Part shown: positions 1 through 30,614 of the stretch, piece by piece
Numbering within the stretch: the first letter of the stretch is position 1
Layout of the letters: the number at the start of each line of letters is the position of its first letter
NCBI GenBank assembly: GCA_018664365.1
Contig: JABJOK010000103.1
Location: forward strand, 1-33,355
Direction: 5' to 3'
Origin: Candidatus Peregrinibacteria bacterium
Lineage (GTDB): Bacteria; Patescibacteriota; Gracilibacteria; UBA1369; LOWO2-01-FULL-3
DNA: 33,355 bases
Translations under genes and position numbers: made by a program
Notes under the pieces: model-generated
What the model saw: only the letters and a program-made list of their open reading frames with translations
Told to the model about the DNA's origin: nothing
Databases searched by the model: none

Positions 1-3000
1 CCTCCTTTCGCACTACAGCATCCCCAACCAGCTCCGCCAGAACCAAGAGTTGAAATATTCGTAATATCAATATCTGAAATACCGCCAGCGTCTTCTTCAT
101 CATCCGTACCCCCATGTCCTCCATGTCCTCCTCCAGCACCACTAGCGTAGGTGCCATAGACACCCCCACCATCACCATATCCATCTTCATAACGCCCACC
201 ACCTTCATGTCCTCGTCCATCAACATCCACAGAACCATTCGCGGTAATATTTATATCTGTAGAGCTAACATTCACAACATGAGCCCCATTGTCTTCGGTG
301 TTCTCCCCGTGCGTTAACATCCCATAAGCATTTATATTCAAAGTAGCAATACTAAAGGCACTTGAAGAAGTATAATCATACAGTTCCAAAGTTCCCTTAA
401 TACTACCATTGGTTCCATTAAGAGTAAGAGTAGTAGCATTATTTAAAGTAGCAGTATCATAAAATTCCAATTCGGTATCATCAATTATCAAAGTTGCATT
501 GGGAGTAAGGACCCCTCCTGCCTCTATACTAAGAGTTCCTGTTCCATCCCCACTAAAGAAAGGGGCATTATCACTATCATCCAAAACTAATGTCTTCCCA
601 GAAGGAACAACGTATTTATTATCACCAACAATTTTAATCCTAGCAGCAGTGACAGAAGAAGGATACTGAGTTGAAGTACCCCCAGTATTAGAACCATTAT
701 CAACACATATATCGCCAGAATCCCCATCAGTATCTACTATATATATAGGACCAGCACCTCCATCAGCATAACCAGCTCCCCCCAAAGCACTGATACTGGA
801 ACAGCTTATATTTGCTGTCAAAGTAGTAGTGTACTCAACAGAAACAGCACCACCGCCACCAGCACCAGCTCCATGGCCAACACTAGCAAGTCCTCCATCA
901 GCACTAATTGAAGCAGTTGCATCACCTGTGATGGAATCAGCTACCAATTTCACTCCACCACCAGCTCCACCTCCTGCATAGTCAGTCCCAGCATCACCAT
1001 CTGCAGTAATAGTCCCATCAATATCTAAAGTCCCACTTGCAGTCAATATTACAAGCCCTCCGCCATCTCCACCATTCCCACTCAAAGCACTTCCACGACC
1101 TCCCCCACCAGATCCAAAAGTAGCAATGTTTGCAATATCAACATCAGCAGCAGTACCGGCATCACCATCTGTGTCATTTCCACCATCACCACCATGCCCA
1201 GCACCAGTTCCAGATGCATAGCCACCATAGACACCAGCAGCAGGCCCAAATCCATCTGTTGTCTGAATCTTACTTCCCTGATGACCACGTCCATCAACAT
1301 CTACTTCAGCGTCAGCATTAATATTAATAGTAGTTGCACTAACGTTAACAGCATGTTCACCATTCCCCTCAGTGTTCTCCCCATGCGTTAACATCGAATA
1401 AGCGTTCAAATTCAAAGTAGCAATACTGAATGCCAAAGATGATGTGAAATATCTCAAATCAAGATATCCCATCTCCCCAGCATCAGTTCCAGTAATGTTC
1501 AAAGTACTAACTCCACTTAGAGTTCCTGTCTGATGCATTTCCAAAATAGCATCCTGAATAGTCAAAGTTGCATTAGCATATAACGTACCTTCAGTAACAC
1601 GAATTATCCCAGTACCATCACCATTTTCGACAGGACTGTTGTCAGGGTCATTAAGAGTCAAGCTGCCTCCACTCGGGATTGTGTATTCAGCATTGTTTTG
1701 TAAGTCTATATTTTTCGCAGTGACACTAGCAGCCGCCTGAGTAGAGGTAGCACCATCTCTGGCTCCATTATCAGAATACAAAGAGGCAGAATCTCCACTA
1801 TCAGTATCATAGATAGCAACTATCCCTGCACCACCATCTTCAGCAGATCCTCCCTTAGCGCCACCGTAATGATCAATATCTGAAGACGCAATCGAATTAG
1901 ATGTAGTGAACTCTATATAAACTCCACCACCGCCTCCTCCTCCGGCTCCATAGCTACCACCATTACCTCCAATAACACTAAAATCATCAACAGCATCGGT
2001 ATTCGTAATTATGTCTGCAACCAGCTTAATACCGCCTCCAGCTCCACCCCCTCCAGTCTCTATCCCAGAAGTTCCATCTGCAGTGATAGTTCCACTGATA
2101 TCAATAGTTCCAGTAGCCTGCAAAATAACTAATCCGCCACCATCGCCACCAGCCAAACTACAGCAACCACCACCACCACCTCCAGAACCAAGAGTAGAGG
2201 GATCATAAATGCTCATATAACCAACTCCGCCAGCATCGCCCTCCACATCCATTCCTCCATTACCATGGTGCCCGCCACCACTACCATCCGCATAAGTTGC
2301 AAAAAATCCACCCCCAGTACCATTACCATCCTGAGAATGTCCCCCTCCTTCGTGTCCAAGTCCATCAACGTCCACAGCTCCACCATCTTCAATTGTTATA
2401 TTTGCAGCCGAGAAATCAACCTCATAGAGCTGAGAGTCTCCATCCACATAAGCATGATCCCCATGCGTCAAAGTTCCTCCACTCTCAACCGTCAAAGTGC
2501 CAGTGAGAGTTTGAGTATCATCATTGTTCTGAGTCAATGTCCCCCCACTAGCAATAGTAATATTATCAACTGCATTAATAGTATAATCTCCAATCGTCAC
2601 AGCATGACTTATACTTACGTCCTCTCCCGCCTGAGGAACCGTTCCCCCGCAATTGTCCCAGGTGCCAGCCGTATTCCAATCGCCCTCAGACCCAGAAGAG
2701 GTACAACTATCAGGAGCCAAAAAAGTACCATCATCACCGTGGTCATAATCAGAAATACCACCAGTAACCGTAGCCGAAGAAATACTATTAGAAGTAACAT
2801 ATCCGAGATAAATACATCCTCCTCCTCCTCCCCCCCAGTAAGACGTAGGATAACCAACAGCTTCACCGCCCACTGCAGTAAAACTTGATGGTGTACCAGC
2901 TATAGTATTAGCTGTAATTTTAACACCACCACCAGCACCACCACCAGAACTAGCACCACCCCACCCACCATCAGCCGTAATCTCACCATTAATAGTGGCT

Positions 3001-3779
3001 GTGCCTGACACCTCTATCATGACTATACCGCCACCGGCACCACCATTACCATGACCACCACCAGAACCCATTGTAGCTGGGTTCGTTGAACTACAATAAG
3101 CTATACCACCCAGAGAACCTGCCTGATTACCATTACCACCATTACCGCCATGACCACCACCACCAGCATTACCAATAACATATGTACCAGGGGCTGGCCC
3201 CTCACCCTTGTCATAACCCAAGTCATCAACATCAATAGTTCCTCCAGCATCAACCGTAAACGTCGCTACCGAGAAATCAACTTCATAAGCTTGCGTAGTG
3301 CTATTATTACCATGTTTCAAAGTCCCTCCATCTAGAATCCATAACTCCCCCCAAAGTGTTTGCTGGACATTATTCATCTGATACACGGTAGAAGCAGCAT
3401 CAAGCCGAAGATTTGTCCCTGTTCCAATATTTCCATATAAATATAGTCTCGCAGTATTCCCCATTAAGGCACCACCAATAGTCAAAGTATCAAAATCTGC
3501 AATCTGACCACCAGCCACTTGCACAGTATAACTCGTAGTAGGACTACCAATATAGACAGCATCCCATTGAGTAGGCACAACATCCCCTGACCAGTTGTTA
3601 GCACTGTTCCAAAGCCCATCACCCGCTCCACCATCCCACGTAATAAGAGCCGCATACGCCACAGGACTGGTCATAAGAACATACGGCCCCACACAAGCAA
3701 ATACGAGCGCTAAAACACCTCCAAGTAGAATTTTTTTTAAACCATTCATAGGTATGGCTAATTTCTCGAAATTTTTCAT
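1..3779 (-). CDS. Giant secreted glycine-rich modular repeat protein. Partial: the 3' end runs off the left window edge. At least 1259 codons.
   Basis: This ORF is absent from the supplied track because no stop codon lies inside the window. Hand translation of the reverse complement from ATG 3779 (second in-frame ATG at 3749) met no stop. I verified this codon by codon for 1-362, 1440-1559, 2220-2342 and 3300-3362. The N-terminus MKNFEKLAIPMNGLKKILLGGVLALVFACVGPYVLMTSPVAYA/AL is signal-peptide-like and parallels that of the neighbouring giant gene. The body repeats motifs such as L(T/K)HG(E/D/N)N, YEVDFS, VDVDG(R/L)GH.GG, GGGHGGNGG, GSGGGG and GGGAGGG(V/I)K. The plus-strand ORFs in this region are antisense shadows (GGN codons read as Pro/Thr/Ser). 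Confidence 0.8.
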   Translation of the reverse strand, partial: MKNFEKLAIPMNGLKKILLGGVLALVFACVGPYVLMTSPVAYAALITWDGGAGDGLWNSANNWSGDVVPTQWDAVYIGSPTTSYTVQVAGGQIADFDTLTIGGALMGNTARLYLYGNIGTGTNLRLDAASTVYQMNNVQQTLWGELWILDGGTLKHGNNSTTQAYEVDFSVATFTVDAGGTIDVDDLGYDKGEGPAPGTYVIGNAGGGGHGGNGGNGNQAGSLGGIAYCSSTNPATMGSGGGHGNGGAGGGIVMIEVSGTATINGEITADGGWGGASSGGGAGGGVKITANTIAGTPSSFTAVGGEAVGYPTSYWGGGGGGCIYLGYVTSNSISSATVTGGISDYDHGDDGTFLAPDSCTSSGSEGDWNTAGTWDNCGGTVPQAGEDVSISHAVTIGDYTINAVDNITIASGGTLTQNNDDTQTLTGTLTVESGGTLTHGDHAYVDGDSQLYEVDFSAANITIEDGGAVDVDGLGHEGGGHSQDGNGTGGGFFATYADGSGGGHHGNGGMDVEGDAGGVGYMSIYDPSTLGSGGGGGGCCSLAGGDGGGLVILQATGTIDISGTITADGTSGIETGGGGAGGGIKLVADIITNTDAVDDFSVIGGNGGSYGAGGGGGGGVYIEFTTSNSIASSDIDHYGGAKGGSAEDGGAGIVAIYDTDSGDSASLYSDNGARDGATSTQAAASVTAKNIDLQNNAEYTIPSGGSLTLNDPDNSPVENGDGTGIIRVTEGTLYANATLTIQDAILEMHQTGTLSGVSTLNITGTDAGEMGYLDLRYFTSSLAFSIATLNLNAYSMLTHGENTEGNGEHAVNVSATTININADAEVDVDGRGHQGSKIQTTDGFGPAAGVYGGYASGTGAGHGGDGGNDTDGDAGTAADVDIANIATFGSGGGGRGSALSGNGGDGGGLVILTASGTLDIDGTITADGDAGTDYAGGGAGGGVKLVADSITGDATASISADGGLASVGHGAGAGGGGAVSVEYTTTLTANISCSSISALGGAGYADGGAGPIYIVDTDGDSGDICVDNGSNTGGTSTQYPSSVTAARIKIVGDNKYVVPSGKTLVLDDSDNAPFFSGDGTGTLSIEAGGVLTPNATLIIDDTELEFYDTATLNNATTLTLNGTNGSIKGTLELYDYTSSSAFSIATLNINAYGMLTHGENTEDNGAHVVNVSSTDINITANGSVDVDGRGHEGGGRYEDGYGDGGGVYGTYASGAGGGHGGHGGTDDEEDAGGISDIDITNISTLGSGGAGWGCCSAKG
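311..3320 (-). repeat. Four coding modules of the glycine-rich protein, roughly 283-360 aa each
   Basis: The landmark string catgcgttaacat / catgcgtcaaag / catgtttcaaag (encoding L-T/K-H-G on the minus strand) recurs at ~311, ~1385, ~2465 and ~3311. The offsets are 1074, 1080 and 849 nt, and all are multiples of 3. Flanking nucleotide similarity is visible, for example 301-385 versus 1374-1460. Confidence 0.7.
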
Positions 3780-3826
3780 TTTAAAAATACCAGAAAAGCG
3801 CACAAAAGAACATTCTGCAGCAAGCT
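3722..3826 (-). repeat. Copy A of a ~104-nt conserved 5' cassette (upstream region plus first ~19 codons) shared by the two giant genes
   Basis: An ungapped alignment by eye with 9717-9820 shows about 9 mismatches in ~104 nt. Similarity stops abruptly on both sides. Confidence 0.85.
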
Positions 3827-3849
3827 TTTAGACAATAACTAATATGAAT

Positions 3850-6800
3850 TTATTTCCTTATTTTTACCGTCCTCGCACTACCCACAACACTCTCTCTTTC
3901 ATCCATCACATAGGCAGTGAGGTCATGCTCCCCTACTGCTAACCTTTTTGGAATATCAATATTGAACTCCCCCTGCGAAGCGTCAGAGATCACTACAGAA
4001 GAAATAACAAGGCTCTTGAACGATACATAAACAGTAGAGCCAGGAGCAGCACGTCCTTTGATAGTATTCGAACCTGGAGTGCGGATTGCAATAAACTCTT
4101 CCTTGTCAAAATCATCAACTATTAGCTCAACATTCTCAAGCAACATAGCAATAAAGACTAACAATTTATCATTCTCAGAAAACTTCAAATACTCAATATT
4201 AGTAGAGCTATCATTCTTAACTTCAAACACATCAATAGACTCAACTTCTTCATTTTCATCATCAGTAACTACAATAAAGTATTCACCATCCTCCAAACCT
4301 TGCCATGAAAGAATCTCGCCCTTTCCATCATCACCTATAACGGTTTCTCCCAAGAAAGTTTTAGATGAGCTGTCATTAATTGGAGCAACATAAATACTAA
4401 CCTTATCATCTGGCTCTCCAGCAAGCCTGAACACCGGAGTATTTCCATAAGAGACAGCATCCAAGTTTGTAATCTTTGCAGAATATTTTAAATATACAGT
4501 TTCTTCATCGTTCTCGTCCTCTGGAAGCTCTTCTTCAAAAACTTCATCAGCAACTAAAGGGTCAGTTCCAAAGAATATCTCGTCAGCATTTGTTCGACCA
4601 TCTTCATCGGGATCAGGATTAAACAACGGAAGTCCATGAGAAATCTGCCACATATCATTGATGGTGTCTTCGTCAGAAGGCTTGCAGCGTTTTTCTGTGC
4701 ATCCATCTAAATTTGTATTTTCATTAATGATAATAACGGTTTTTCCTGCCTCATCAGCAGCAGTTTTCTTTTCCTCATACTTCTCGTCAGTTTGAATGAT
4801 AATCTCAACCTCTTCGATGTCGCTAATCTCTAAAATTTCATCACCTTGCAAGACTTTAATATGCTTCTTACCTTTAGTAACCTGTTCTAAAAATTCTTTG
4901 CTAAGACCAGTTTTGAAATGTTTTTCGAGATATTTTATCTCCAGTTTTTCAGATACATCCTCGTATTTTTGTTCAGCCAATGCCATTCTTGTATCTTGAA
5001 GAACCTCGAGATATTTTAGGAAAAACTTCACCTTTTCCTCCTGGGGCATATCTACAGAAAAGTCAGGATTGTTTTTTTCAAGCTCTCTATCAAGATATTC
5101 ATCCATAGCACTCACAATTTCTTCTTGAAACTCTTCCTCAGGTTCTTCTTCAGCATCTTCGACAATCTCTGGATCAATAATAACTGGCTCTCCATATGGA
5201 AGGTCGTTTATTTGATCCAAGGCATTTTGAAGAATATCTTCTTCATTTTCTGAGACCTCTTCTTCATCAACATCAACAACGTCGTCAAGATCTTCCTCTT
5301 CTTCTTCCTCATTTTCGTCATCGTCATCGTCTACTGCCGGAGGAGTAACTGGAGGACCTATAGATCCACCAGAAGAAATAATTGCCGGCGGCGCATCAGC
5401 AGTCACAGCACCAATAGTAGCAGAGTCGGTGGTGTTGCCAGAGGCATCTCTAACAGTAATTTTAAAGATATGTGGACTACTAGATGTAAGGCCAGTTGAT
5501 GTCCAGGTAGTAACTGCTTGCCATCCAGAATCAGTCCCTTTTGTTAAGTTTGTAAATTTATAAGGAGTTACATGCATTCCCGAATCTCCATCAGTTGGAG
5601 TTCCATCAATAGAAAGTCCAACGCTAGAAGTAGTAGTTCCTGTTGAAGACAATATAACGGCAGAAATATCAGGATCAGTAGTGTCTAATTGAAAAGCAAC
5701 ACTTCCGCTATTTGCAATAACCTCAGAAGAGGTTAAGCCGTGGTTTTCCACCGCCTGAACTTTCCAGTAATAATCTCCAGCAGCCAAGGTTTGAGATTCC
5801 GCTCCTATAGTATAGGCGCCACCAGTATCGGCAGCCTGCCCTACGGTAAAGCCCTGTGTAGTCCCAGAAACGATGTCATTAGCTCCATAAGTATAGTGAA
5901 CAACAGGGCTAGAAAAATCATCGTCATCATCAACATAAATAATATATCCCAAGCTGTCTCCATCTGGATCAGTAAGAGTGAAATTCAGAGTAGGAGTTGT
6001 ATCCCCAGTCCATTCACCCATGGTTAAAGCCGCCTCAGTCAAATCTTCCTGAGTTGCAGTTTGCGAAAGAGATGGTGGATTTGCAGGTTGCTGAGAAAAT
6101 TTAAAAGTATATTTTGTCTCCCATCCACTAATGTTACCAGCGGTGTCTCTTGTATTGATACGAAGATAATAAGGAGTGTTTGGAAGGGGAGCAGCAGCGG
6201 CATCATATGCAGGGGAAGAAACAGTTGCAGTAGGCGTAGTTGATGCAATCTCAGTTCCCCAATAAACATCATATTCATCTACTCCAGAACCACCAACATC
6301 AGTTCCAGAGGTCCAGACAAAATCCGGATCAGCAATTGTTGCCCAAGTATCGTCGAGCGACCCATTACTGTCAGTTACAGTTCCCGCATTTATAGGATCA
6401 ACAGAGTCGTAATAAAAGTTCACAGAACCAGTTAAACCATTGTTGGATGCATTATCTGTAGCAAAAACTTCAAACAGCTTTGTTCCATCAGCATCCGAGC
6501 TTAAGGTTACGTCCAAAGTGGTGTCATCCGGTGTAGTAGTTGAAGCAGTCCCCGCATCGGTTTCATAAGTATAATTTGCAATTCCAGAGCCTCCAACATC
6601 TCCTGGATCACTCCAAGAAAACTCGAATGAATTAGAATTAGTCCAAGAAGTTGGTGAAGAAGAAGGAGCCGGAGTATTTGGAGCGTCTTCATCAAACTTA
6701 TGTGTAAAAATAGTAGCCCAACAATCAGAATCAGCAGGGCGATCTACATTGGTGTTTGTACAAGTATCGCTTCCCCCATCAGGGTCAGCCCAGTTACCTG

Positions 6801-9774
6801 CAAGATCTTGAGTGATTACTCTTAAATATCTTTCTCCAGATTCTGCAAGTGAGCTAGGGTCGACAGCATCGGTCAAAATAGAGTCAGTAGTAACACCAGT
6901 AGCGCTTGTATCAAAGTACCAATAATATTGATAGATTCCATTTGTATCAAATTCATTTGTAAATGAAGTGAAGTCTGGATCATCATTGGTATTACTCCAG
7001 GTATCGTCAACTGCCCCTTGTCCGTCAATTGCTCCATCGGGATTAGTTGGTGCAGTTGTGTCGTAAATAATATTATCAGTAATGACTGAGGATTCATTCC
7101 CGAGCGCATCCTTAAAAATTGCATAAACAGTTTTGGTTCCCTCTGAAGAATCTCCTCCATAGGCAACATCGCTGAAGTCCCAAGAAGCCTTTGTAGCACC
7201 ATAAGCTTCATAAGCACTATATGTAATTCCATCATTACTGAACTTCATTTCAGAAGCTCCAGTAATAGCAGAAAGGTCTACGTCCTCAGTCAGGCTAGAT
7301 GTGAAAGTAGTTCCCCCGGCAGCATCTGTAGTCGATTGGATTGCAGTAACGCCAGATGGAGCCTGGTTATCCACAGTAAATACTAAAGAGGTATCGTCGG
7401 CAGTTACGGTTCCATCGTCAACAGTTACCATAATTTGTACAGTTTCAGGCTCAGCTGTAATAGGAACGTAGTCAGGAGTTGCGTTCTGACTATCCCAGAC
7501 AATGGTCAAAGTGTTCTCTCCACTTGAAGTATCTACCGCACTAAATTGTCCAGCAGTTTCATCAAAATCACCATTAGTAATTGTAGGAGTAGCTCCATAA
7601 GAAGGAGTCACAGAATCAAGATACGTTCTATTCCAGCTAACTCCTGCATCAGTGGTGTAATCCACCTTTACCTCAAGAGGGTTATCATTAGCATCGGCAA
7701 CACCAACTGTGAAAGTTACTTTTCCAAGACCGTCGGTAGTTTGTGAAACAAGTTCAGGTGTTGTGTCGATAGTAGGGGCATCGTTTGTAGAATAAGTAAT
7801 AGTGTCAGTAATAGCGGATGATTCATTCCCAAAATCATCTTTAAAAATCGCATACACAGTTTTTGTCCCTTCGGTAGAATCGCCTCCATAGGTAGCATTA
7901 GACATATCCCAAGAAGACTTAGTAACAGCATAAGCCTCGTAGGCAGTATATGTAATTCCATCATTACTAAACTTCATCTCAGTAGCTCCAGTTATAGCAG
8001 AAAGATCGATGTCTTCGATTAAGCTAGAGGTTGAAGTATTAGTGCCATCAGTACTAGATTGAATTACAAAAGTTCCATAAGGCATCTGATTATTGACAGT
8101 GAAAGTTGAAGAGCTATCACTAGCAGTATCAGTTCCATCGTCTGCAGTTACCTTAACCTGAACAGTGCTAAGATCAGCACCTATATAAGTATAGCTTGGA
8201 GTAGAGTACTTACTGTCCCATGTAACGGTTATGTCTTTCGTTCCTCCTGCGGTATCTACGCTAAATTGTCCGGCGGTAGAATCGTGGGCACCATTGGTTA
8301 TTGTAAGAGGACCTTCTGCAGAAGGTGTAGCAGAATCAATATAGGCTCTGTACCAATTAGTTCCATTAGTTGTATATTCTATTGTTATCTCAGAAGTATC
8401 GGCCACATCTGTCTCTTCAACAGAAAAATCAAAAGTTATAGTCCCAAGTCCATCTGTAGATTGATGTGATGGAGTAGCCGGAATAACATTTGTTACGACA
8501 GGGGCGGCGTTTGTCACTTCTGCATAATTGAATATATATGCTGCTCCAGCATCTATCCCGTTGTCATCATCGAAGGCTGCTCCTATTAGTGCATAATTAT
8601 TACTATTTATGGCAACTCCACATCCAAAGTTATCTTCAGCTTCGCCATCACTTGCTATTAGCGTGCTTCCTAACTGACTCCATGTGGATCCAGATCTTTG
8701 ATATATATACGCCGCTCCATTGTAGGCTGGATTGAGTGTATCTGCCTCACCAATTATTGCATATGAACCGTTTAGATCTACACTAGTTCCATAAGTACCT
8801 GTCCCTGGTGTTATTGTTTGCTGATGACTCCAGGTATCTCCTAATCTATAATACACGTATACGTTAGGCCCATAATGTGTGGCAATAAAATAATCTCCTG
8901 ATACTGCTATGGATGAGGTTCCCATGCCCATTTCTGACGATAATGCTGGTTCTAGCTTTTGCTGTTGTGACCAGGTCTCACCACTTCTAGTGAATACATA
9001 TACAGAGCCTGCGTTTACTCCTTTTGTATTATCTTCGCCTGGAGCACCAGCGACCACTGTATCTCCATCTATATCTACTGTATATCCGACATAAGCGTTT
9101 GCTTCATCGTCATCGGCAGCTAGTGGATACCAGGTCGCCATGACACCAGTTTGCACTGTCCAGCTTTCTAGGCCTGTATCTCTTTTGTATATCTCTATTC
9201 CACCTTGGCCCAGACGTTGGGGGATGGTGGGGCTGTAATTAGGCCCTCCCACCACTGCATAATCTCCATCTATGCCTACGCTCCACCCGAAGTCACCTGC
9301 ATGGGGAGACGTAATGTATTCCGTTATACTCCATGTATCCAATCCAGTGTCTCTTTTGTATATATATGATCTATTGTCCGATGGGGCTCCGATGATCATA
9401 TAGTCACCACTTATATCCACACTTCTTCCAAAGCTGCTACTCGAAGGGCCCGTAAGCATATCTACCTGAGCCCAGGTAGCCCCTGATCTTTTAAATACAT
9501 AGGCCTTGTCTTCGTCTTCTGCCCCAACGACCGCATATGTTCCAGTGCTATCTACGGTTACAGATTCTCCATTAGTGCCTCCCCAGTAGTTACTGAAGTA
9601 TTCTCCTGCAGCGCCATCGTCGGGTGTGATTTTTTGCTGTTGACTCCAATCGGAAGCAGCATAGGCCACAAACCCCACAAAGCCCACGCAAACAAAAAAG
9701 AGCGATACAAACAGTACAAGTAGAATTTTTTTTAAATCATTCATAAGTATGGCAAATTTCTCAAAATTTTTCAT
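3850..9774 (-). CDS. Giant secreted multidomain protein: signal peptide, FG-GAP-type beta-propeller repeats, tandem Ig/FN3-like modules, acidic linker, TSP3-like Ca-binding motif, C-terminal Ig-like domains
   Basis: The track ORF is 3850..9798. Conserved in-frame ATGs lie at 9774 (MKNFEKF) and 9744 (MNDLKKILLVLFVSLFFVCVGFVGFVAYA/AS, a canonical signal peptide with an AxA site). The repeated unit FG.SV.ISGDY.IIGAP....AYI(F/Y).R.G..W.Q occurs about 6-7 times (ORF aa ~85-425), matching FG-GAP-like repeats. D.AGN and GGSG(I/V).Y.Y modules follow. The motif NPDPDEDGRTNADEIFFGTDP maps to nt 4546-4620. Confidence 0.85.
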   Translation of the reverse strand: MKNFEKFAILMNDLKKILLVLFVSLFFVCVGFVGFVAYAASDWSQQQKITPDDGAAGEYFSNYWGGTNGESVTVDSTGTYAVVGAEDEDKAYVFKRSGATWAQVDMLTGPSSSSFGRSVDISGDYMIIGAPSDNRSYIYKRDTGLDTWSITEYITSPHAGDFGWSVGIDGDYAVVGGPNYSPTIPQRLGQGGIEIYKRDTGLESWTVQTGVMATWYPLAADDDEANAYVGYTVDIDGDTVVAGAPGEDNTKGVNAGSVYVFTRSGETWSQQQKLEPALSSEMGMGTSSIAVSGDYFIATHYGPNVYVYYRLGDTWSHQQTITPGTGTYGTSVDLNGSYAIIGEADTLNPAYNGAAYIYQRSGSTWSQLGSTLIASDGEAEDNFGCGVAINSNNYALIGAAFDDDNGIDAGAAYIFNYAEVTNAAPVVTNVIPATPSHQSTDGLGTITFDFSVEETDVADTSEITIEYTTNGTNWYRAYIDSATPSAEGPLTITNGAHDSTAGQFSVDTAGGTKDITVTWDSKYSTPSYTYIGADLSTVQVKVTADDGTDTASDSSSTFTVNNQMPYGTFVIQSSTDGTNTSTSSLIEDIDLSAITGATEMKFSNDGITYTAYEAYAVTKSSWDMSNATYGGDSTEGTKTVYAIFKDDFGNESSAITDTITYSTNDAPTIDTTPELVSQTTDGLGKVTFTVGVADANDNPLEVKVDYTTDAGVSWNRTYLDSVTPSYGATPTITNGDFDETAGQFSAVDTSSGENTLTIVWDSQNATPDYVPITAEPETVQIMVTVDDGTVTADDTSLVFTVDNQAPSGVTAIQSTTDAAGGTTFTSSLTEDVDLSAITGASEMKFSNDGITYSAYEAYGATKASWDFSDVAYGGDSSEGTKTVYAIFKDALGNESSVITDNIIYDTTAPTNPDGAIDGQGAVDDTWSNTNDDPDFTSFTNEFDTNGIYQYYWYFDTSATGVTTDSILTDAVDPSSLAESGERYLRVITQDLAGNWADPDGGSDTCTNTNVDRPADSDCWATIFTHKFDEDAPNTPAPSSSPTSWTNSNSFEFSWSDPGDVGGSGIANYTYETDAGTASTTTPDDTTLDVTLSSDADGTKLFEVFATDNASNNGLTGSVNFYYDSVDPINAGTVTDSNGSLDDTWATIADPDFVWTSGTDVGGSGVDEYDVYWGTEIASTTPTATVSSPAYDAAAAPLPNTPYYLRINTRDTAGNISGWETKYTFKFSQQPANPPSLSQTATQEDLTEAALTMGEWTGDTTPTLNFTLTDPDGDSLGYIIYVDDDDDFSSPVVHYTYGANDIVSGTTQGFTVGQAADTGGAYTIGAESQTLAAGDYYWKVQAVENHGLTSSEVIANSGSVAFQLDTTDPDISAVILSSTGTTTSSVGLSIDGTPTDGDSGMHVTPYKFTNLTKGTDSGWQAVTTWTSTGLTSSSPHIFKITVRDASGNTTDSATIGAVTADAPPAIISSGGSIGPPVTPPAVDDDDDENEEEEEEDLDDVVDVDEEEVSENEEDILQNALDQINDLPYGEPVIIDPEIVEDAEEEPEEEFQEEIVSAMDEYLDRELEKNNPDFSVDMPQEEKVKFFLKYLEVLQDTRMALAEQKYEDVSEKLEIKYLEKHFKTGLSKEFLEQVTKGKKHIKVLQGDEILEISDIEEVEIIIQTDEKYEEKKTAADEAGKTVIIINENTNLDGCTEKRCKPSDEDTINDMWQISHGLPLFNPDPDEDGRTNADEIFFGTDPLVADEVFEEELPEDENDEETVYLKYSAKITNLDAVSYGNTPVFRLAGEPDDKVSIYVAPINDSSSKTFLGETVIGDDGKGEILSWQGLEDGEYFIVVTDDENEEVESIDVFEVKNDSSTNIEYLKFSENDKLLVFIAMLLENVELIVDDFDKEEFIAIRTPGSNTIKGRAAPGSTVYVSFKSLVISSVVISDASQGEFNIDIPKRLAVGEHDLTAYVMDERESVVGSARTVKIRK
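7054..8511 (-). repeat. In-frame tandem duplication of a ~242-aa (726-nt) two-domain unit inside the giant protein
   Basis: ORF aa 430-671 (NAAPVVTNV...ITYSTN) and 672-915 (DAPTIDTT...IIYDTT) align along their whole length. The nucleotide strings at ~7231 and ~7957 are near-identical at an offset of 726 nt. Confidence 0.85.
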
Positions 9775-9820
9775 TTTAAAAATAGCAGAAAAGCACAAAA
9801 AAGAACATTCCGCAGCAAGA
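9717..9820 (-). repeat. Copy B of the conserved 5' cassette shared by the two giant genes
   Basis: See copy A (3722-3826). Confidence 0.85.
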
Positions 9821-9897
9821 TTCCAGGAAGCCGATAAACAAGAGTTTAATGAAAAAAGAAGAAGGCACTTTCAAGGCATTTCTGATAGACTCTTCGC

Positions 9898-11249: not shown

Positions 11250-11951
11250 CTAGATCGGCTTGGCCATGCAGTACCACTTACCGTCTACCTGGACGAGGTT
11301 GTAATCCTCGCTCGGGCAGGACAGTGTGGGGCTGCACTTTATGGCATGTCCGACGTGAATCAAGTACCCCTTGCAGACGGGGGGCTCGCTCACAGGCTCA
11401 CTGTGTCGGGGGGCATTCCAGGCTCGCCGATAGTCCTCTCTCGGATCGTGTTGGGGCTCGGGATCCTCAAGGGACTCCTCCTCACCGAAACACATAACCG
11501 GGGTTACCTTCACCTCTCCGCAGACGCGGAAAACGTCCATCCGCGGGTCTTCCGTACGATGGTTGACCCACACGCCCGTCTGAATCGACGAACGACGAAG
11601 GCTGAGGCTATGGCGAGAGCTAGTCGACGAGCGGCCGTTCACTTTTGAGCTGCTCTTGTAGAGGAATTCTGCCACATCACTGGGGCATCCTTCCATAAGA
11701 GACGCTCGAAGGTCCAGGTCGATATCGGTCCACACCAGCGAATCGAAGCTCTCCTGAGAGACCTTGCGACAGCTGACGACGCGGTTATCAACAAAACCGA
11801 TCATGGAACCACGGGCAGTCGCCTGCCAGTAGGCCTCGATGGTTGTGTCGACTTCCGTAGAGCCGAAATATCCCGTCGAAGTGCTCGCGCACCCCGAAAT
11901 GATGAGTGCGGTTGCGACCACACCCAGAGGCATAAAACCCTTTCTCTGCAT
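11250..11951 (-). CDS. Lipoprotein of unknown function, encoded in a GC-rich islet
   Basis: The N-terminus MQRKGFMPLGVVATALIISG/CAS has a positive n-region, a hydrophobic core and a lipobox (L/I)-(S)-G-C. AAGGAG lies 8 nt upstream of the ATG. Third codon positions are strongly G/C-biased, as expected for a real gene from a GC-rich background. The C-terminal part is Cys-rich. I recognise no family. Confidence 0.7.
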   Translation of the reverse strand: MQRKGFMPLGVVATALIISGCASTSTGYFGSTEVDTTIEAYWQATARGSMIGFVDNRVVSCRKVSQESFDSLVWTDIDLDLRASLMEGCPSDVAEFLYKSSSKVNGRSSTSSRHSLSLRRSSIQTGVWVNHRTEDPRMDVFRVCGEVKVTPVMCFGEEESLEDPEPQHDPREDYRRAWNAPRHSEPVSEPPVCKGYLIHVGHAIKCSPTLSCPSEDYNLVQVDGKWYCMAKPI

Positions 11952-13790: not shown

Positions 13791-14948
13791 ATGGCAGGAC
13801 CAGAAAAACCAGATTTTTCAAAACATGAAGGGATTAAGGACATGAAACCTTCAGAGATATTGAAGTATATTTATGAAGCTGGTAAGGAAAAACTAGAAGA
13901 AACAGGCCTCCAGCTTAAAGGCATAGGAGAAATTATTGCTGATCAGCTTAGAACATTTACATACCCCAAAAGGCTCCTTGAAAGAGGCATGAAAACGTAT
14001 AAATCAATTGATGATGCGTTAAAGGAATTGCATTTAGTTACGCCACAGATGGATGAAAAAGGCATTGTTTTGAGGCTACCCGAGTACTATTTTGCAATTG
14101 CTCTTAAAGAGAGTCATTACAATCCCTTTGCAGTATCAAATCTAAAAAGAGGAAAAGATGGAGAAAAGCTTGAGACTGAAAAAGATTTTCAATTAAAGAA
14201 AGAAGGAGAAACAGCTGCAAAATATAAGCAGCGTCTTGAGAGATATGCCATGGGGGCTTTTCAAGTTAAATTAGATGCTCTCAAATCGGTAAATCGGCAC
14301 TTTGGCCTAAATTTTAAAAAAGACGATATCATTTATATCCCGGAAGGATTGACTTTAGAAGAATTGAAATCAGCAGATTTTAGTAAACTTTCTCCTAAAG
14401 AAAGGCAGAAACTCCGCATAACAATGATGAATAATGCAAAGGTAGCAATCCTTTACTGGCACATCTGTAGAGATATTGCTCCAGCAGAAGGCATGGGGAA
14501 ATATGACACAAAAATTGAATTCACTAGCCCTGCAGACCAGGACAAGCTCGCAGCATTTTTATACAATTACGGGACAAGTCGTGGAGGGACTCTTATTGCA
14601 GCAATAAAGCCGGCTCCTAAAACTTACGCCGAATTTGAAGAGGGAGTTGCAAAAATCATGGCAAAACAATCTAAGATAAAACTTCCAGAGGAGCAGTACA
14701 CAAAAGGAAAAAGTTCTTCCAATCAAGTATATTTTTCCACATGGTTCTCTAGGAAAGAGCGCGGACAGCTAAAATCAAAGAGCTATTTGAAAATTGATAG
14801 ATCGCATGTTAAAAACGTAAAACCTCTTCAATCAGCTGAATATTCCCCTTCTGTAGTACTCGCAGGCCTAGACTATTCGGCGATAATTGATTCCATCAGA
14901 AAGGGTAGATATTTTTCAACAGTTAAGCTTACTAGCGTTCCAAAATAA
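13791..14948 (+). CDS. Lytic transglycosylase (SLT-domain)-like protein without a recognisable signal peptide
   Basis: Three SLT-like motifs appear in the correct order: AIALKESHYNPFAVS (catalytic E-S), AMGAFQV (GLMQ-like) and AAFLYNYGTSRG (AYNxG-like). The first two are separated by a charged ~35-aa insertion. The N-terminus is hydrophilic. Confidence 0.4.
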   Translation: MAGPEKPDFSKHEGIKDMKPSEILKYIYEAGKEKLEETGLQLKGIGEIIADQLRTFTYPKRLLERGMKTYKSIDDALKELHLVTPQMDEKGIVLRLPEYYFAIALKESHYNPFAVSNLKRGKDGEKLETEKDFQLKKEGETAAKYKQRLERYAMGAFQVKLDALKSVNRHFGLNFKKDDIIYIPEGLTLEELKSADFSKLSPKERQKLRITMMNNAKVAILYWHICRDIAPAEGMGKYDTKIEFTSPADQDKLAAFLYNYGTSRGGTLIAAIKPAPKTYAEFEEGVAKIMAKQSKIKLPEEQYTKGKSSSNQVYFSTWFSRKERGQLKSKSYLKIDRSHVKNVKPLQSAEYSPSVVLAGLDYSAIIDSIRKGRYFSTVKLTSVPK

Positions 14949-28973: not shown

Positions 28974-30614
28974 CTAGTTAAGGACTACTGCCCTACAATG
29001 CAGGGATCCTTCTCTGTACCCCGTTTCTCCACTTAGCTGCATTGTGTCAGTCATATCTATTGGCACGACTTTGAATCCCTCAGATTTATAAATATTTGCA
29101 GCCTCTTCGTCTTCATCAATTCCATATTGAGGAAGCATTACAACCTTTTCGTTATCACTATTAGTAAACATAAGGCAATTAGTATAATTCATTGCTGCGT
29201 ATGGACCGCAAGGAAGGGGCACAACTCTAAATCCTAATTTATCAAATTGTGATTTAACCTCATTTAAATAGGTCCGTACACCTTGAGAATAGTCTTCTCT
29301 TCCTTGAACGCTGGTACAAAAGGACAAGCTTTCACCACGATGACTGGTTGCAGTTTTTACAGCCATATCGATATGGAAAAACGGAAAATCCTTCGGGGTT
29401 TCACCAGAAAGAGACTCCATAAGCATTTTTTTATAAGCTATCATTCCATTACTGCCCTTGTATTCATTCATATGGCGCTCACCAGGAATAATAACCTCGT
29501 CAACACCAAGGGCTTTAGCATATTTCTTTTTAGCAGATGCTACTCTTTTCCAAAAATAATCCGGATTCATCCATTTATCACTTCCAAGCGAATACACGCT
29601 ATCAAAAAAATTCATTAAGACATGTCTTCCAACAAGTGCGGCCATTTTTCCGTCTGGCAATCTAGTCACAGATAAATCCCCTCCTCTAAGAGGAGGAACA
29701 ACCATTTTTCGAGAAAAATCAGCTGGATACTTATCTACAATAAGGTCATCTCCTATAAACTGCACTCCCCTTGTCGAGGCTGTCCTTAAGGATTCATCAC
29801 AGATAAGATGAGTATCAAGAAGGGCTCGTCCTTGTACATCGTATTCATATTTACGTAGATTCGAAGATGTTAATTTTACATCAGCACGACTTGTTCCAAT
29901 AAGAAAACGCCCCTGATCATCCTGAGACCCAGATGCAAAGACAACGTCCTGCATGTAGTCATTGCCTTCAGGACTAAAAGGAAGTTCATATAGGGAAATA
30001 CTTAGGTGAGGATAATCAGATTGAATTTCTTCAATATCTGATTCAATGCCTTCAGGTATAACAATTTTTACAGCAGTACCTTCAGCAAGAGATTTAAAAA
30101 GTGAGCCATATCTTTCTGAAACCGCATTTGGTAAATCGCGAGCACTCACAAGTTTTGATTCAGGATTTATACCCACCATAATATTTGCTCCGGTTCTTTC
30201 ATCTTCTGGAATAATTTCACCCGGTTTAAAAAAATCTATATCCTCATTCAGCAAATCATCCACAGCAGCCTTAAGCGCTGGGATAGTATCGTCAGACATT
30301 TTACTTTCATCTGTAAAATCAGTTGCAACTGTATCGACAGCACGCGACACTCCGCCAGCAACAGCAACAATTGCAGCAGCTCCTGCTAATAAAAGAAACC
30401 TTCTCCTATCCCTCCTAACCTCTCTTGGCATAAACCTTTGGCGCATATCTCGATCATCAGGATCGCTCCATTTAAGAGCATCTTTTATGGCAATTCCTGT
30501 GCTTTTAGCATAAAAACCAATATCACTAAAAACAGCACGCACAGGGTGCGCTTTTCTTCGTTCCAGCTCTCTTCCCCTCATCTGAGGTCTTTCAAATAAT
30601 GGCATAAGCATCAA
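28974..30614 (-). CDS. Exported (Tat-like signal or anchor) amidinotransferase-fold / guanidino-group-modifying enzyme superfamily protein
   Basis: A twin-arginine-like motif, RRDRRRFLLLAGAAAIVAVAGGVSRA, spans aa ~67-92. The C-terminal half carries the fold's motifs in order: GGDLSV...AALVG, FFHIDMAV, NYTNCLMF, and a terminal EGSLHCRAVVLN. The last resembles the catalytic Cys context seen in agmatine/arginine deiminases and DDAH. Confidence 0.45.
   Translation of the reverse strand: MMLMPLFERPQMRGRELERRKAHPVRAVFSDIGFYAKSTGIAIKDALKWSDPDDRDMRQRFMPREVRRDRRRFLLLAGAAAIVAVAGGVSRAVDTVATDFTDESKMSDDTIPALKAAVDDLLNEDIDFFKPGEIIPEDERTGANIMVGINPESKLVSARDLPNAVSERYGSLFKSLAEGTAVKIVIPEGIESDIEEIQSDYPHLSISLYELPFSPEGNDYMQDVVFASGSQDDQGRFLIGTSRADVKLTSSNLRKYEYDVQGRALLDTHLICDESLRTASTRGVQFIGDDLIVDKYPADFSRKMVVPPLRGGDLSVTRLPDGKMAALVGRHVLMNFFDSVYSLGSDKWMNPDYFWKRVASAKKKYAKALGVDEVIIPGERHMNEYKGSNGMIAYKKMLMESLSGETPKDFPFFHIDMAVKTATSHRGESLSFCTSVQGREDYSQGVRTYLNEVKSQFDKLGFRVVPLPCGPYAAMNYTNCLMFTNSDNEKVVMLPQYGIDEDEEAANIYKSEGFKVVPIDMTDTMQLSGETGYREGSLHCRAVVLN

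What the first reader, a model, noticed from the sequence alone, without database searches (positions are those of the whole stretch)
1..3779. A >1259-codon gene that is invisible in the ORF track
The supplied track shows only short plus-strand ORFs over the first 3.8 kb. The minus strand is nevertheless one uninterrupted reading frame from ATG 3779 to the window edge. The track misses it only because the stop codon lies outside the window. The product has a signal peptide and is extremely Gly-rich, with long GGxGGxGG runs alternating with beta-strand-like T/V/I-rich stretches. I cannot assign it to a named family. Proteins of this size and composition in small genomes are candidate cell-surface or host-contact structures.
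Basis: seen in the sequence. Interest (0 to 1): 0.65.

Follow-up and report, generated by a model that had tools for sequence, protein, structure and literature searches.

The report
Truncated giant glycine-rich beta-helix surface protein
The first 3.8 kb of the window is the front half of a real ~2470-residue secreted protein from a Peregrinibacteria (candidate phyla radiation) bacterium, built from repeated glycine-rich beta-helix modules; it is most likely a rigid cell-surface fibre, and it belongs to a very large, unnamed protein family, so it is not a one-off oddity.

Summary
The minus strand from ATG 3779 to the window edge is open for 1259 codons, and the ORF lister omits it only because it skips ORFs that run off an end. 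The gene is real: it has strong codon-position bias and homologues down to E = 2e-150.

A protein 100% identical over all 1259 residues exists on a 55.5-kb contig and is 2478 aa long, so the window holds about 51% of the gene. Its layout is: Sec-type leader, five ~260-aa Gly-rich modules, Ig-like domains, an acidic stretch, and C-terminal Ig-like domains.

AlphaFold models the modules confidently (pLDDT 91 and 85; pTM 0.91 and 0.84) as one continuous all-beta solenoid with ~32-residue coils. All PDB neighbours are right-handed beta-helix proteins, adhesins and polysaccharide lyases among them, but the matches are weak.

No Pfam or NCBIfam model covers the module. A profile search still finds 18,065 protein clusters, 6,371 of them at E <= 1e-30.

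The gene lies in tandem with an FG-GAP (integrin-like) giant gene. The two share a ~140-nt 5' leader cassette and a ~750-aa C-terminal cassette.

Best reading: a secreted surface fibre or adhesin. It is a new member of a known kind, of modest interest.

The parts
1..3779 (-). 5' half (codons 1-1259, plus 2 bases of the next codon) of a ~2470-codon gene. The stop codon lies beyond the window edge.
   Evidence: No stop in 1259 codons. 100% identical to residues 9-1267 of the 2478-aa protein P0122.
3651..3779 (-). N-terminal leader, aa 1-43: MKNFEKLAIPMNGLKK, then a hydrophobic core ILLGGVLALVFACVGPYVLM, then TSPVAYA|A. Probably a Sec signal peptide.
   Evidence: It is the only hydrophobic segment in the full-length protein. 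An AxA-type site is read directly from the sequence. There is no lipobox.
3687..3826 (-). ~140-nt 5' cassette covering ~50 nt upstream plus the first ~90 nt of coding sequence. It is ~90% identical to the 5' end of the upstream FG-GAP gene (about 9682-9821). Boundaries are approximate.
   Evidence: Pairwise DNA alignment. A 56-nt degenerate pattern matches exactly twice in the window, against 0 expected.
3357..3650 (-). First beta-helix N-cap and lead-in coils (aa 44-141), carrying the motif W-N-x-x-N-N-W-x-G-x-x-V-P-x-x-x-D-x-V.
   Evidence: Read from the sequence. The equivalent region of module 2 is modelled as short-strand beta coils with pLDDT 88-98.
2709..3356 (-). Gly-rich solenoid module 1 core (aa 142-357).
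   Evidence: Module HMM hit, score 179.8, i-Evalue 3.9e-57. Module alignment.
2508..2708 (-). Second cap (aa 358-424), with a G8-like motif W-N-T-A-G-T-W-D-N-C-G-G-T-V-P…D-V-S-I.
   Evidence: Sub-threshold Pfam G8 match at aa 378-441, 18.8 bits against a cut-off of 22.9. Modelled as beta coils.
1680..2507 (-). Gly-rich solenoid module 2 core (aa 425-700).
   Evidence: HMM score 209.8, i-Evalue 2.8e-66. AlphaFold model with pLDDT 91 and pTM 0.91.
1428..1679 (-). Inter-module beta-strand linker (aa 701-784).
   Evidence: Modelled as regular short strands continuous with the cores.
609..1427 (-). Gly-rich solenoid module 3 core (aa 785-1057).
   Evidence: HMM score 200.8, i-Evalue 1.5e-63. Included in the two-module model with pTM 0.84.
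354..608 (-). Inter-module beta-strand linker (aa 1058-1142).
   Evidence: Aligns with linker 701-784.
3..353 (-). Module 4 core, cut off by the window edge (aa 1143-1259).
   Evidence: Module alignment. Complete in P0122 at residues 1151-1419.
3850..9774 (-). Upstream tandem paralogue: a 1974-aa FG-GAP repeat protein. It shares the leader, an internal Ig-like domain (73% identity) and the ~620-aa C-terminal cassette (60% identity) with the full-length target.
   Evidence: Pfam FG-GAP_2 at E = 1e-42, 6 stretches. BLASTP against P0122. Same gene order on the long contig.

Best explanation
Window 1-3779 (minus strand) encodes the N-terminal 51% of a ~2470-residue secreted protein of a Peregrinibacteria (CPR/Patescibacteria) bacterium.

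Proposed sequence of events and architecture:
1. A Sec-type leader takes the chain across the membrane.
2. Five tandem ~260-residue glycine-rich modules, joined by beta-strand linkers at a ~358-aa period, fold into one continuous rigid beta-solenoid rod. Each coil is ~32 residues and closes with a conserved oligo-glycine arc.
3. The rod is followed by Ig-like domains, a ~290-residue strongly acidic region, and two C-terminal Ig-like domains.
4. Two neighbouring giant genes form a cluster with it. The upstream one carries an integrin-like FG-GAP propeller and shares the target's leader and C-terminal cassette. The downstream one is uncharacterised.

The most likely role is a cell-surface fibre or adhesin. 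The shared C-terminal cassette would be the common attachment or assembly part, and the variable N-terminal 'heads' (beta-helix rod versus FG-GAP propeller) would contact other cells or surfaces.

Shown: the ORF, the full length, the modular repeat, the confident beta-solenoid prediction, the shared cassettes and the family size.
Inferred: signal-peptide cleavage, surface location and adhesive function.
For: - ORF and coding signal.
- Full-length identical protein P0122 (2478 aa, five modules) and its three-giant-gene context.
- Taxon: cluster member MBT7736960.1 is named 'Candidatus Peregrinibacteria bacterium'. The window also carries housekeeping genes (FtsA, FtsZ, FemAB, RNase J, tRNA-Asp).
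- Leader: it is the only hydrophobic segment, with an AYA|A site. 90 of 120 homologues also have an N-terminal hydrophobic segment.
- Fold: the single-module model has pLDDT 91 and pTM 0.91 and is all-beta. The two-module model has pLDDT 85 and pTM 0.84, so the inter-module geometry is confident.
- Fold neighbours: every top PDB match is a right-handed beta-helix. They include the adhesins TibA, Ag43, Hbp, pertactin, HxuA, tapirin and PfbA, plus polysaccharide lyases.
- Coil size: the ~32-residue period comes from profile autocorrelation, with peaks at 30-34, 63-66 and ~95-108.
- Conservation: 53 of 239 module columns are Gly at >70%. The 18 conserved non-Gly columns are L, Y, P, S, A, I, R, F, T, D or N, with no recognisable catalytic set. 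The one conserved Arg is not kept in this protein's own modules. This points to a scaffold, not an enzyme.
- Partner gene: FG-GAP at E = 1e-42, with the shared leader and shared C-terminal cassette at 60-73% identity.
- Homologue architectures: modules are combined with fn3, Big_13, dockerin and carboxypeptidase-regulatory-like domains. Another Patescibacteria homologue also lies in tandem with a second giant gene.
- Literature: large multidomain proteins in CPR, PVC and Omnitrophota are generally read as adhesion or predation factors (10.1101/2023.11.21.568195). Fibrillar adhesins are defined as stalk plus adhesive domains (PMC8286594 abstract).
Against: - No experimental evidence exists for expression, localisation or binding.
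- No anchor was found: no LPXTG, no lipobox and no second transmembrane segment in the full-length protein. The protein could be released instead of retained.
- No known adhesive domain passes threshold.
- Fold matches to adhesins are weak (best E = 1.6e-3 to 2.2e-3, TM <= 0.33). The same lists include lyases, glycosidases and ice-binding proteins, so the fold alone does not give function.
- The C-terminal half is not in the window and was read from an identical-prefix protein from another sample.
- Coordinates of the models could not be inspected. 'Rod' rests on DSSP strings, pLDDT and pTM only.
Confidence: 0.6

Rival explanations
1. The beta-helix modules are carbohydrate-active, i.e. a polysaccharide lyase, glycosidase or carbohydrate-binding CASH-type beta-helix. 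The protein would then be an extracellular enzyme that digests a host or prey envelope, and not a passive fibre.
For: The fold-search lists contain PL6 alginate lyases, GH110, pectate lyases, polygalacturonases and phage depolymerase tailspikes. Giant CPR/PVC proteins have been proposed to degrade cell walls (PMC12057145).
Against: No Pfam beta-helix, pectate-lyase or lyase family is detected, even at E <= 0.1-1. Conserved columns are overwhelmingly Gly. The few conserved polar positions (R178, D224, N225 of the profile) are not kept consistently in this protein's own modules. Matches to enzymes are no better than those to adhesins (E >= 1e-2).
Confidence: 0.12
2. It is a structural envelope component (S-layer-like or sheath protein) that coats the cell, and not a projecting adhesin.
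For: It is secreted, very large, repetitive, acidic and Thr/Gly-rich. No recognisable anchor or adhesive domain was found. Three co-oriented giant genes share one C-terminal cassette that could mediate co-assembly.
Against: The partner head is an FG-GAP integrin-like propeller, typically a ligand-binding module. Homologues carry very variable accessory domains (fn3, dockerin, Big, carboxypeptidase-regulatory-like) and 2-12 module copies. That pattern is more typical of fast-evolving adhesins than of lattice-forming S-layer proteins. No SLH or other S-layer domain was detected.
Confidence: 0.12
3. It is an ice-binding or mineral-binding (surface-adsorbing) beta-solenoid, like the large bacterial ice adhesins.
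For: A Flavobacteriaceae ice-binding protein is among the PDB hits (5uyt, E = 0.04). The composition is Thr-rich (10.4%) with flat beta-solenoid faces.
Against: The match is non-significant (probability 0.09). No Ca-binding RTX-type or TxT ladder motif is conserved in the profile. The family occurs across many phyla and in very large numbers. The sample environment was not determined.
Confidence: 0.03
4. The open frame is not a real gene, i.e. a chance ORF or a compositional artefact of Gly-codon-rich DNA.
For: None beyond the low-complexity composition.
Against: P(no stop) is about 10^-35 and the shuffle maximum is 161 codons. Codon-position bias is strong. There are 391 homologues, the best at E = 2e-150. 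18,065 profile hits were found. The structure prediction is confident.
Confidence: 0.01

Closest known systems
Unnamed family of large 'beta strand repeat-containing' or hypothetical proteins of Patescibacteria (e.g. Magasanikbacteria A2821_01310, A2563_05240), Planctomycetota and Verrucomicrobiota
   Same: The same ~260-aa Gly-rich module: LTHxxNST … VDxxGxGY … GGGHGGxGG … GSGGG … GGGxIxL … ADG … GGGxGGSI … GGGGGGRIA … GGAGTIY. It occurs in 2-7 tandem copies after an N-terminal hydrophobic leader. Best hit: E = 2e-150, 37% identity.
   Different: The Peregrinibacteria protein has five copies at a ~358-aa period with beta-strand linkers, whereas the common PVC type has seven copies at a ~260-aa period. 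Its C-terminal cassette (Ig-like, acidic region, Ig-like) is shared with its own FG-GAP neighbour. The Magasanikbacteria-type relatives read here (P0003, P0009, P0013) instead have an fn3 stalk and a C-terminal transmembrane segment followed by a segment that looks carboxypeptidase-regulatory-like by eye.
Autotransporter passenger adhesins with right-handed parallel beta-helix (Ag43 4kh3/7koh, TibA 4q1q, pertactin 1dab, Hbp 1wxr)
   Same: They are the top structural neighbours of both models. Like the target, they are long, rigid, secreted beta-solenoids used for adhesion or self-association.
   Different: Similarity is weak (E >= 1.6e-3, TM <= 0.33, 9-14% identity). The coil is ~32 residues with oligo-Gly arcs, wider by my recollection than the ~19-25-residue coils typical of those adhesins. 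There is no C-terminal beta-barrel translocator. By general knowledge of CPR bacteria, not tested here, the host is expected to lack an outer membrane.
Gly-rich proteins of prasinoviruses and giant viruses in BFVD (Bathycoccus RCC716 virus 1 'PA14 domain protein' A0A7S6NY19, Ostreococcus mediterraneus virus 2 A0A6H1QWC9, Pandoravirus and Orpheovirus 'collagen-like' proteins)
   Same: They are the best structural matches found: rmsd 4.5-5.5 A over 264-275 columns, 23-27% identity, E = 4e-6 to 5e-7. The module core therefore seems to recur in viral proteins.
   Different: These are predicted, not solved, structures, and none has a known function. Gly-rich composition may inflate the scores. Homology was not tested at the sequence level.
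Pfam G8 domain (PF10162) and NCBIfam AgmC_N (NF047640, Myxococcus adventurous-gliding protein AgmC)
   Same: They are the only named models with any signal. G8 matches the W…W…G..VP…D.V.I cap that precedes a beta-helix. AgmC_N profile positions 162-401 align to module 2.
   Different: Both fall below their curated cut-offs: 18.8 against 22.9 bits, and 17.8 against 275 bits. The protein is not a member of either family.
Fibrillar adhesins (Monzon et al. 2021, PMC8286594)
   Same: A long secreted multidomain protein with repeated rigid domains and Ig-like 'stalk-type' domains, evolving fast in domain content.
   Different: No recognised adhesive domain or cell-wall anchor was detected. The Ig-like matches are just under the Pfam thresholds (Big_13 at 26.4 against 27).

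Membership tests
Unnamed Gly-rich ~260-aa beta-solenoid module family ('beta strand repeat-containing proteins' of Patescibacteria and PVC) | Significant sequence similarity of the module to family members | tested here: met
   391 hits at E <= 1e-3, the best at 2e-150. The module HMM finds 630 copies in 120 proteins. This protein's own modules score 139-210 bits. A profile search finds 18,065 clusters.
Unnamed Gly-rich ~260-aa beta-solenoid module family | Tandem multi-copy architecture behind an N-terminal hydrophobic leader | tested here: met
   Four copies in the window and five in the full-length protein. Leader shown. 90 of 120 relatives have an N-terminal hydrophobic segment.
Pfam G8 (PF10162) | Score at or above the gathering threshold (22.9 bits) | tested here: not met
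   18.8 bits and 16.8 bits on the full-length protein.
NCBIfam gliding_AgmC_N (NF047640) | Score at or above the curated cut-off (275 bits) | tested here: not met
   17.8 bits, E = 0.0013.
Right-handed parallel beta-helix (pectin-lyase-like) fold | Significant structural superposition on solved beta-helix proteins | tested here: inconclusive
   All top hits belong to this fold class, but the best E-values are 2.2e-3 and 1.6e-3 with TM <= 0.33.
Type V autotransporters | C-terminal beta-barrel translocator domain | tested here: not met
   No autotransporter domain in Pfam on full-length P0122. The C-terminus is Ig-like (Big_13/Big_6, sub-threshold).
Polyglycine-II folds (snow-flea antifreeze protein, ALK/LTK glycine-rich domain, phage S16 gp38 sandwich) | Bundle or sheet of polyglycine-II helices; structural or sequence match to those proteins | tested here: inconclusive
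   No such protein appears among the 50 matches listed for each PDB fold search, and Pfam gives no match. However, the ~80-residue oligo-Gly stretch (model residues 111-189) has pLDDT > 90 with almost no DSSP strand. A locally polyglycine-II-like conformation therefore cannot be excluded without coordinates.
Fibrillar adhesins | Known adhesive domain plus stalk repeats plus cell-surface anchor | tested here: inconclusive
   Stalk-like Ig domains are only sub-threshold. No known adhesive domain passes threshold. No LPXTG, lipobox or C-terminal transmembrane segment.
Gram-positive sortase-anchored surface proteins | C-terminal LPXTG-type sorting signal | tested here: not met
   A regex on full-length P0122 finds none.

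The most novel reading that the evidence does not exclude
The locus is a set of interchangeable host-recognition fibres of an episymbiotic CPR bacterium. Three tandem giant genes would keep a common 5' leader cassette (~90% nucleotide identity, i.e. under concerted evolution or strong selection) and a common C-terminal attachment or assembly cassette. Between these they carry unrelated 'heads': a Gly-rich wide-coil beta-solenoid, an FG-GAP propeller and a third uncharacterised head. Recombination between the conserved flanks could then swap heads and shift host range, analogous to phage tail-fibre cassettes. In addition, the Gly-rich ~32-residue-coil module would be a structurally new solenoid subclass, possibly with polyglycine-II-like arcs. 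It is shared with giant-virus proteins and is represented by more than 6,000 protein clusters, yet has no solved structure and no curated model in the libraries searched.
Probability: 0.2. Interest if true: 0.6.

Novelty: new member of a known kind. Interest (0 to 1): 0.35.

Why it matters
CPR/Patescibacteria are thought to live attached to other microbes, and how they recognise and hold their hosts is largely unknown. This locus offers a concrete candidate: three co-oriented giant secreted proteins, at least two of which share a leader and tail around different heads.

The Gly-rich module is also a large piece of protein 'dark matter'. It is found in 18,065 clusters and in proteins up to about 7,100 aa, yet it has no Pfam or NCBIfam model and no solved structure. 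Defining it as a domain family, and solving one module, would annotate thousands of giant proteins at once.

On the practical side, the case shows that ORF tracks which drop edge-truncated genes can hide the largest gene on a contig.

Tried and rejected
- Self-BLAST for internal repeats returned only the self-hit. I replaced it with a diagonal scan.
- align_proteins failed on 120 and on 57 full-length proteins. I used HMM-extracted modules instead.
- The look-up of encoding contigs found no record for P0001.
- For P0122 the gene list was returned but no DNA. The third giant gene and the 3' half of the target could therefore not be read as DNA.
- The genome-contig scan with the protein found no relative.
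- The metagenome-contig scans with the protein and with the 5' cassette pattern both came back empty.
- Two homologue searches with the shared C-terminal cassette returned nothing, not even the known 60% paralogue or the query itself. I treat this as a failure of the word index on these queries, not as absence. The distribution of the C-terminal cassette is therefore unknown.
- PDB sequence searches gave only artefacts, such as Gly-Ser linkers.
- PHROGs gave no hit, and there is no prophage context.
- Literature searches for this module and for AgmC found nothing specific.
- DNA repeats inside 1-3900 are only 60-82% identical. No exact repeat within the window explains why the contig ends inside the gene.
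- Rejected readings: chance ORF, autotransporter, sortase-anchored protein, and membership of G8 or AgmC.

Full report
**1. The observation**

Translating window 1-3779 on the minus strand gives 1259 codons without a stop. The other five frames of the same stretch contain 29-141 stops each. With the strand's base composition, a stop is expected every ~16 codons. The probability of 1259 stop-free codons is about 10^-35.5, and the longest open run in 200 shuffles was 161 codons.

Codon-position composition is strongly skewed: G is 48.6% at position 1 and T is 56.4% at position 3. The ORF lister states that ORFs running off an end are not reported, which is why the track shows only short plus-strand ORFs here.

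The frame remains open for 15 more codons upstream of ATG 3779 and includes a possible GTG start. A second ATG lies at codon 11. Different gene callers used different starts, and all of them precede the same hydrophobic leader.

**2. The complete gene**

The 90%-identity cluster of the window's own product contains a 2478-aa protein, P0122, from a 55,555-bp JGI contig. It also contains a partial protein that NCBI names 'Candidatus Peregrinibacteria bacterium' (MBT7736960.1). Residues 9-1267 of P0122 are 100% identical to the 1259 residues encoded in the window.

The window therefore holds about 51% of a ~2470-codon gene, and the organism is a Peregrinibacteria (CPR/Patescibacteria) bacterium. 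The rest of the window is ordinary chromosome: MFS transporter, glycosyltransferase, 5'-3' exonuclease, FtsA, FtsZ, FemAB, RNase J and tRNA-Asp. It has no phage signal.

**3. Anatomy**

Leader. The N-terminus is MKNFEKLAIPMNGLKK, then a 20-residue hydrophobic core, then TSPVAYA|A. It is the only hydrophobic segment in the full-length protein. There is no lipobox and no LPXTG.

Modules. Next come repeated modules. A diagonal scan gives an offset of 357-359 aa, with L[TK]HG anchors at residues 154, 437, 797 and 1155. An HMM of the ~260-aa core finds five copies in P0122, at 150-411, 433-708, 793-1065, 1151-1419 and 1506-1759. The window contains copies 1-3 and the first 117 residues of copy 4.

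Conservation. Across 631 aligned copies, 53 of 239 match columns are Gly at more than 70% conservation. Only 18 non-Gly columns reach that level (L, Y, P, S, A, I, R, F, T, D, N). The profile autocorrelates at 30-34 residues, with harmonics near 64 and 96-108. The core is thus itself a stack of ~32-residue sub-repeats, each ending in an oligo-Gly run such as GGGHGG, GSGGG, GGxGGG, GGGxGG or GGGGGGG.

DNA divergence. The module copies are only 60-82% identical at the DNA level, so the duplications are old.

**4. Structure**

Single module. An AlphaFold2 model of residues 361-790 (one full period), built on a 48-row module alignment, has mean pLDDT 91 and pTM 0.91. It consists of short beta strands throughout. 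The exception is a ~80-residue stretch (model residues 111-189, the GGGH…GSGGG part), which has pLDDT above 90 but only isolated beta bridges.

Two modules. A model of residues 361-1150 has pLDDT 85 and pTM 0.84. The relative placement of successive modules is therefore predicted with confidence, which is what one continuous rigid solenoid would give.

PDB neighbours. Foldseek returns only right-handed parallel beta-helix proteins at the top: TibA, Ag43, Hbp, pertactin, HxuA, tapirins, PfbA, an ice-binding protein, PL6 and pectate lyases, and tailspikes. All are weak: the best E-values are 2.2e-3 and 1.6e-3, with TM <= 0.33 and 9-14% identity.

Viral neighbours. The viral predicted-structure library gives better matches. 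Prasinovirus proteins align at rmsd 4.5-5.5 A over 264-275 columns with 23-27% identity, and Pandoravirus and Orpheovirus 'collagen-like' proteins also match.

No polyglycine-II protein appears in the listed matches. The answer is the beta-solenoid class, with the caveat that the oligo-Gly arcs could locally adopt polyglycine-II-like geometry.

Rod length. At 4.8 A per coil, I estimate roughly 8 nm per period and ~40 nm for five modules. This is my inference only.

**5. Family**

No curated model covers the module. Pfam gives only sub-threshold G8 (18.8 against 22.9 bits), on the W…W…G..VP…D.V.I cap. NCBIfam gives only AgmC_N at 17.8 bits against a cut-off of 275. PHROGs and PDB sequence searches give nothing real.

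The module is nevertheless extremely common. The word-indexed search found 391 proteins at E <= 1e-3, the best at 2e-150 and 37% identity. They come from Patescibacteria (Magasanikbacteria), Planctomycetota, Verrucomicrobiota and other phyla.

An exhaustive profile search of 1.84 billion cluster representatives found 18,065 proteins at E <= 1e-3, 11,907 at <= 1e-10 and 6,371 at <= 1e-30. These proteins reach 7,134 aa and carry up to 12 matched stretches.

Two architectures dominate among the top 120. One has ~7 copies at a ~260-aa period in ~2,190-aa proteins. The other has 2-5 copies at 340-400 aa, followed by fn3, Ig or other domains. The window's protein is thus a new member of an existing, unnamed family.

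**6. The neighbourhood changes the picture**

The gene immediately upstream (3850-9774, minus strand, 1974 aa) has six FG-GAP repeats at E = 1e-42. It begins with almost the same leader, MKNFEKFAILMNDLKKILL….

At the DNA level, about 140 nt are ~90% identical between the two genes: roughly 50 nt upstream of the ATG plus the first 90 nt of coding sequence. A 56-nt degenerate pattern occurs exactly twice in the window, against 0 expected.

At the other end, P0122 residues 1735-1885 are 73% identical to an internal Ig-like domain of the FG-GAP protein. Residues 1858-2478 are 60% identical to its last 628 residues. This shared tail comprises the following parts:
- an fn3/Ig-like region;
- a ~290-residue acidic stretch, with 86 D+E against 21 K+R;
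- a DPDEDGRTNADEIF…DPLVAD motif, which resembles a thrombospondin-type-3 Ca-binding repeat (my recollection, not tested);
- two Ig-like domains that fall just under the Pfam thresholds, Big_13 at 26.4 against 27 bits and Big_6 at 17.9.

On the long contig the order is MFS (-), FG-GAP giant (+), target (+), and a third giant gene of 1865 aa (+) with faint FG-GAP hits. A Patescibacteria homologue, P0003, likewise lies in tandem with a second ~2030-aa fn3-bearing giant gene.

**7. Mechanism**

Shown: a long gene with a leader, five solenoid modules predicted to form a rigid all-beta body, Ig-like domains, an acidic region, and paralogues sharing the leader and tail.

Inferred: the product is exported by Sec and displayed as a fibre. 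The common C-terminal cassette would serve for retention or assembly. The N-terminal heads, a Gly-rich rod or an FG-GAP propeller, would make the contacts.

Supporting considerations:
- The conserved positions are almost all Gly, pointing to a scaffold and not to catalysis.
- The structural neighbours include many adhesins.
- The partner head is integrin-like.
- Large multidomain proteins in these lineages are generally read as adhesion or predation factors (10.1101/2023.11.21.568195; PMC8286594).

Considerations against:
- No anchor motif was found.
- No recognised adhesive domain was found.
- Fold matches are weak and also include lyases.
- There are no expression data.

I put the surface fibre/adhesin reading at about 0.6. 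The rivals are an extracellular carbohydrate-active beta-helix (0.12), an S-layer-like envelope component (0.12), an ice- or mineral-binding solenoid (0.03) and 'not a gene' (0.01).

**8. Novelty and score**

The 'invisible gene' is a tool artefact. The gene itself is a typical, if uncharacterised, giant secreted beta-solenoid protein of a CPR bacterium. It belongs to a very large family that databases already hold as hypothetical or 'beta strand repeat-containing' proteins. A specialist would not be very surprised.

Three things are worth noting:
- The family is large, yet it has no curated model in the libraries searched and no solved structure.
- The wide ~32-residue Gly-arc coil also appears in giant-virus proteins.
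- The locus is cassette-like, with shared 5' and C-terminal flanks around unrelated heads.

The most novel reading not excluded is an interchangeable host-recognition fibre set plus a new solenoid subclass. I give it a probability of 0.2 and an interest of 0.6 if true. Overall interest is 0.35, and the novelty class is 'new member of a known kind'.

Noticed in passing
window 3687-3826 and 9682-9821 (minus strand; approximate): A ~140-nt block, spanning the upstream region and the start of the signal peptide, is ~90% identical between the two giant genes. Their shared C-terminal protein cassette is only 60% identical. This suggests concerted evolution of, or strong selection on, the leader and 5' region.
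   Followed up: partly
window 11250-11951 (-): A 233-aa ORF with a lipoprotein-like N-terminus (…ALIISGC…) lies in a 55-60% GC island, against a background of ~40% GC. It has no Pfam family on record and is also present on the long JGI contig. It may have been acquired horizontally.
   Followed up: partly
window 3850-9774 (-): A 1974-aa FG-GAP (integrin-like propeller) protein carries repeated Ig-like domains. Two internal ~150-aa domains resemble each other and also resemble the target's residues 1735-1885 (46-73% identity).
   Followed up: partly
long JGI contig (sample 3300072015), just downstream of the target; not in the window: A third co-oriented giant gene (1865 aa, faint FG-GAP hits) follows the target. 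Its sequence could not be retrieved, so it is unknown whether it shares the leader and tail cassettes.
   Followed up: no
L001 10001-22513: The Patescibacteria homologue P0003 (2080 aa) also lies in tandem with a second ~2030-aa fn3-bearing giant gene. Tandem pairs of such genes may therefore be a recurring arrangement.
   Followed up: no
window 13791-14948 (+) and 28974-30614 (-): Two sizeable ORFs (385 aa and 546 aa) have no Pfam match at E <= 1e-3.
   Followed up: no
target protein aa 539-540 (window ~2160-2165) and aa 1254-1255 (window ~15-20): A conserved Cys-Cys pair (GGCCS) sits at the same position in modules 2 and 4 only, within an otherwise Cys-poor protein (15 Cys in 2478 aa). It could be a vicinal disulfide or a metal site.
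   Followed up: no
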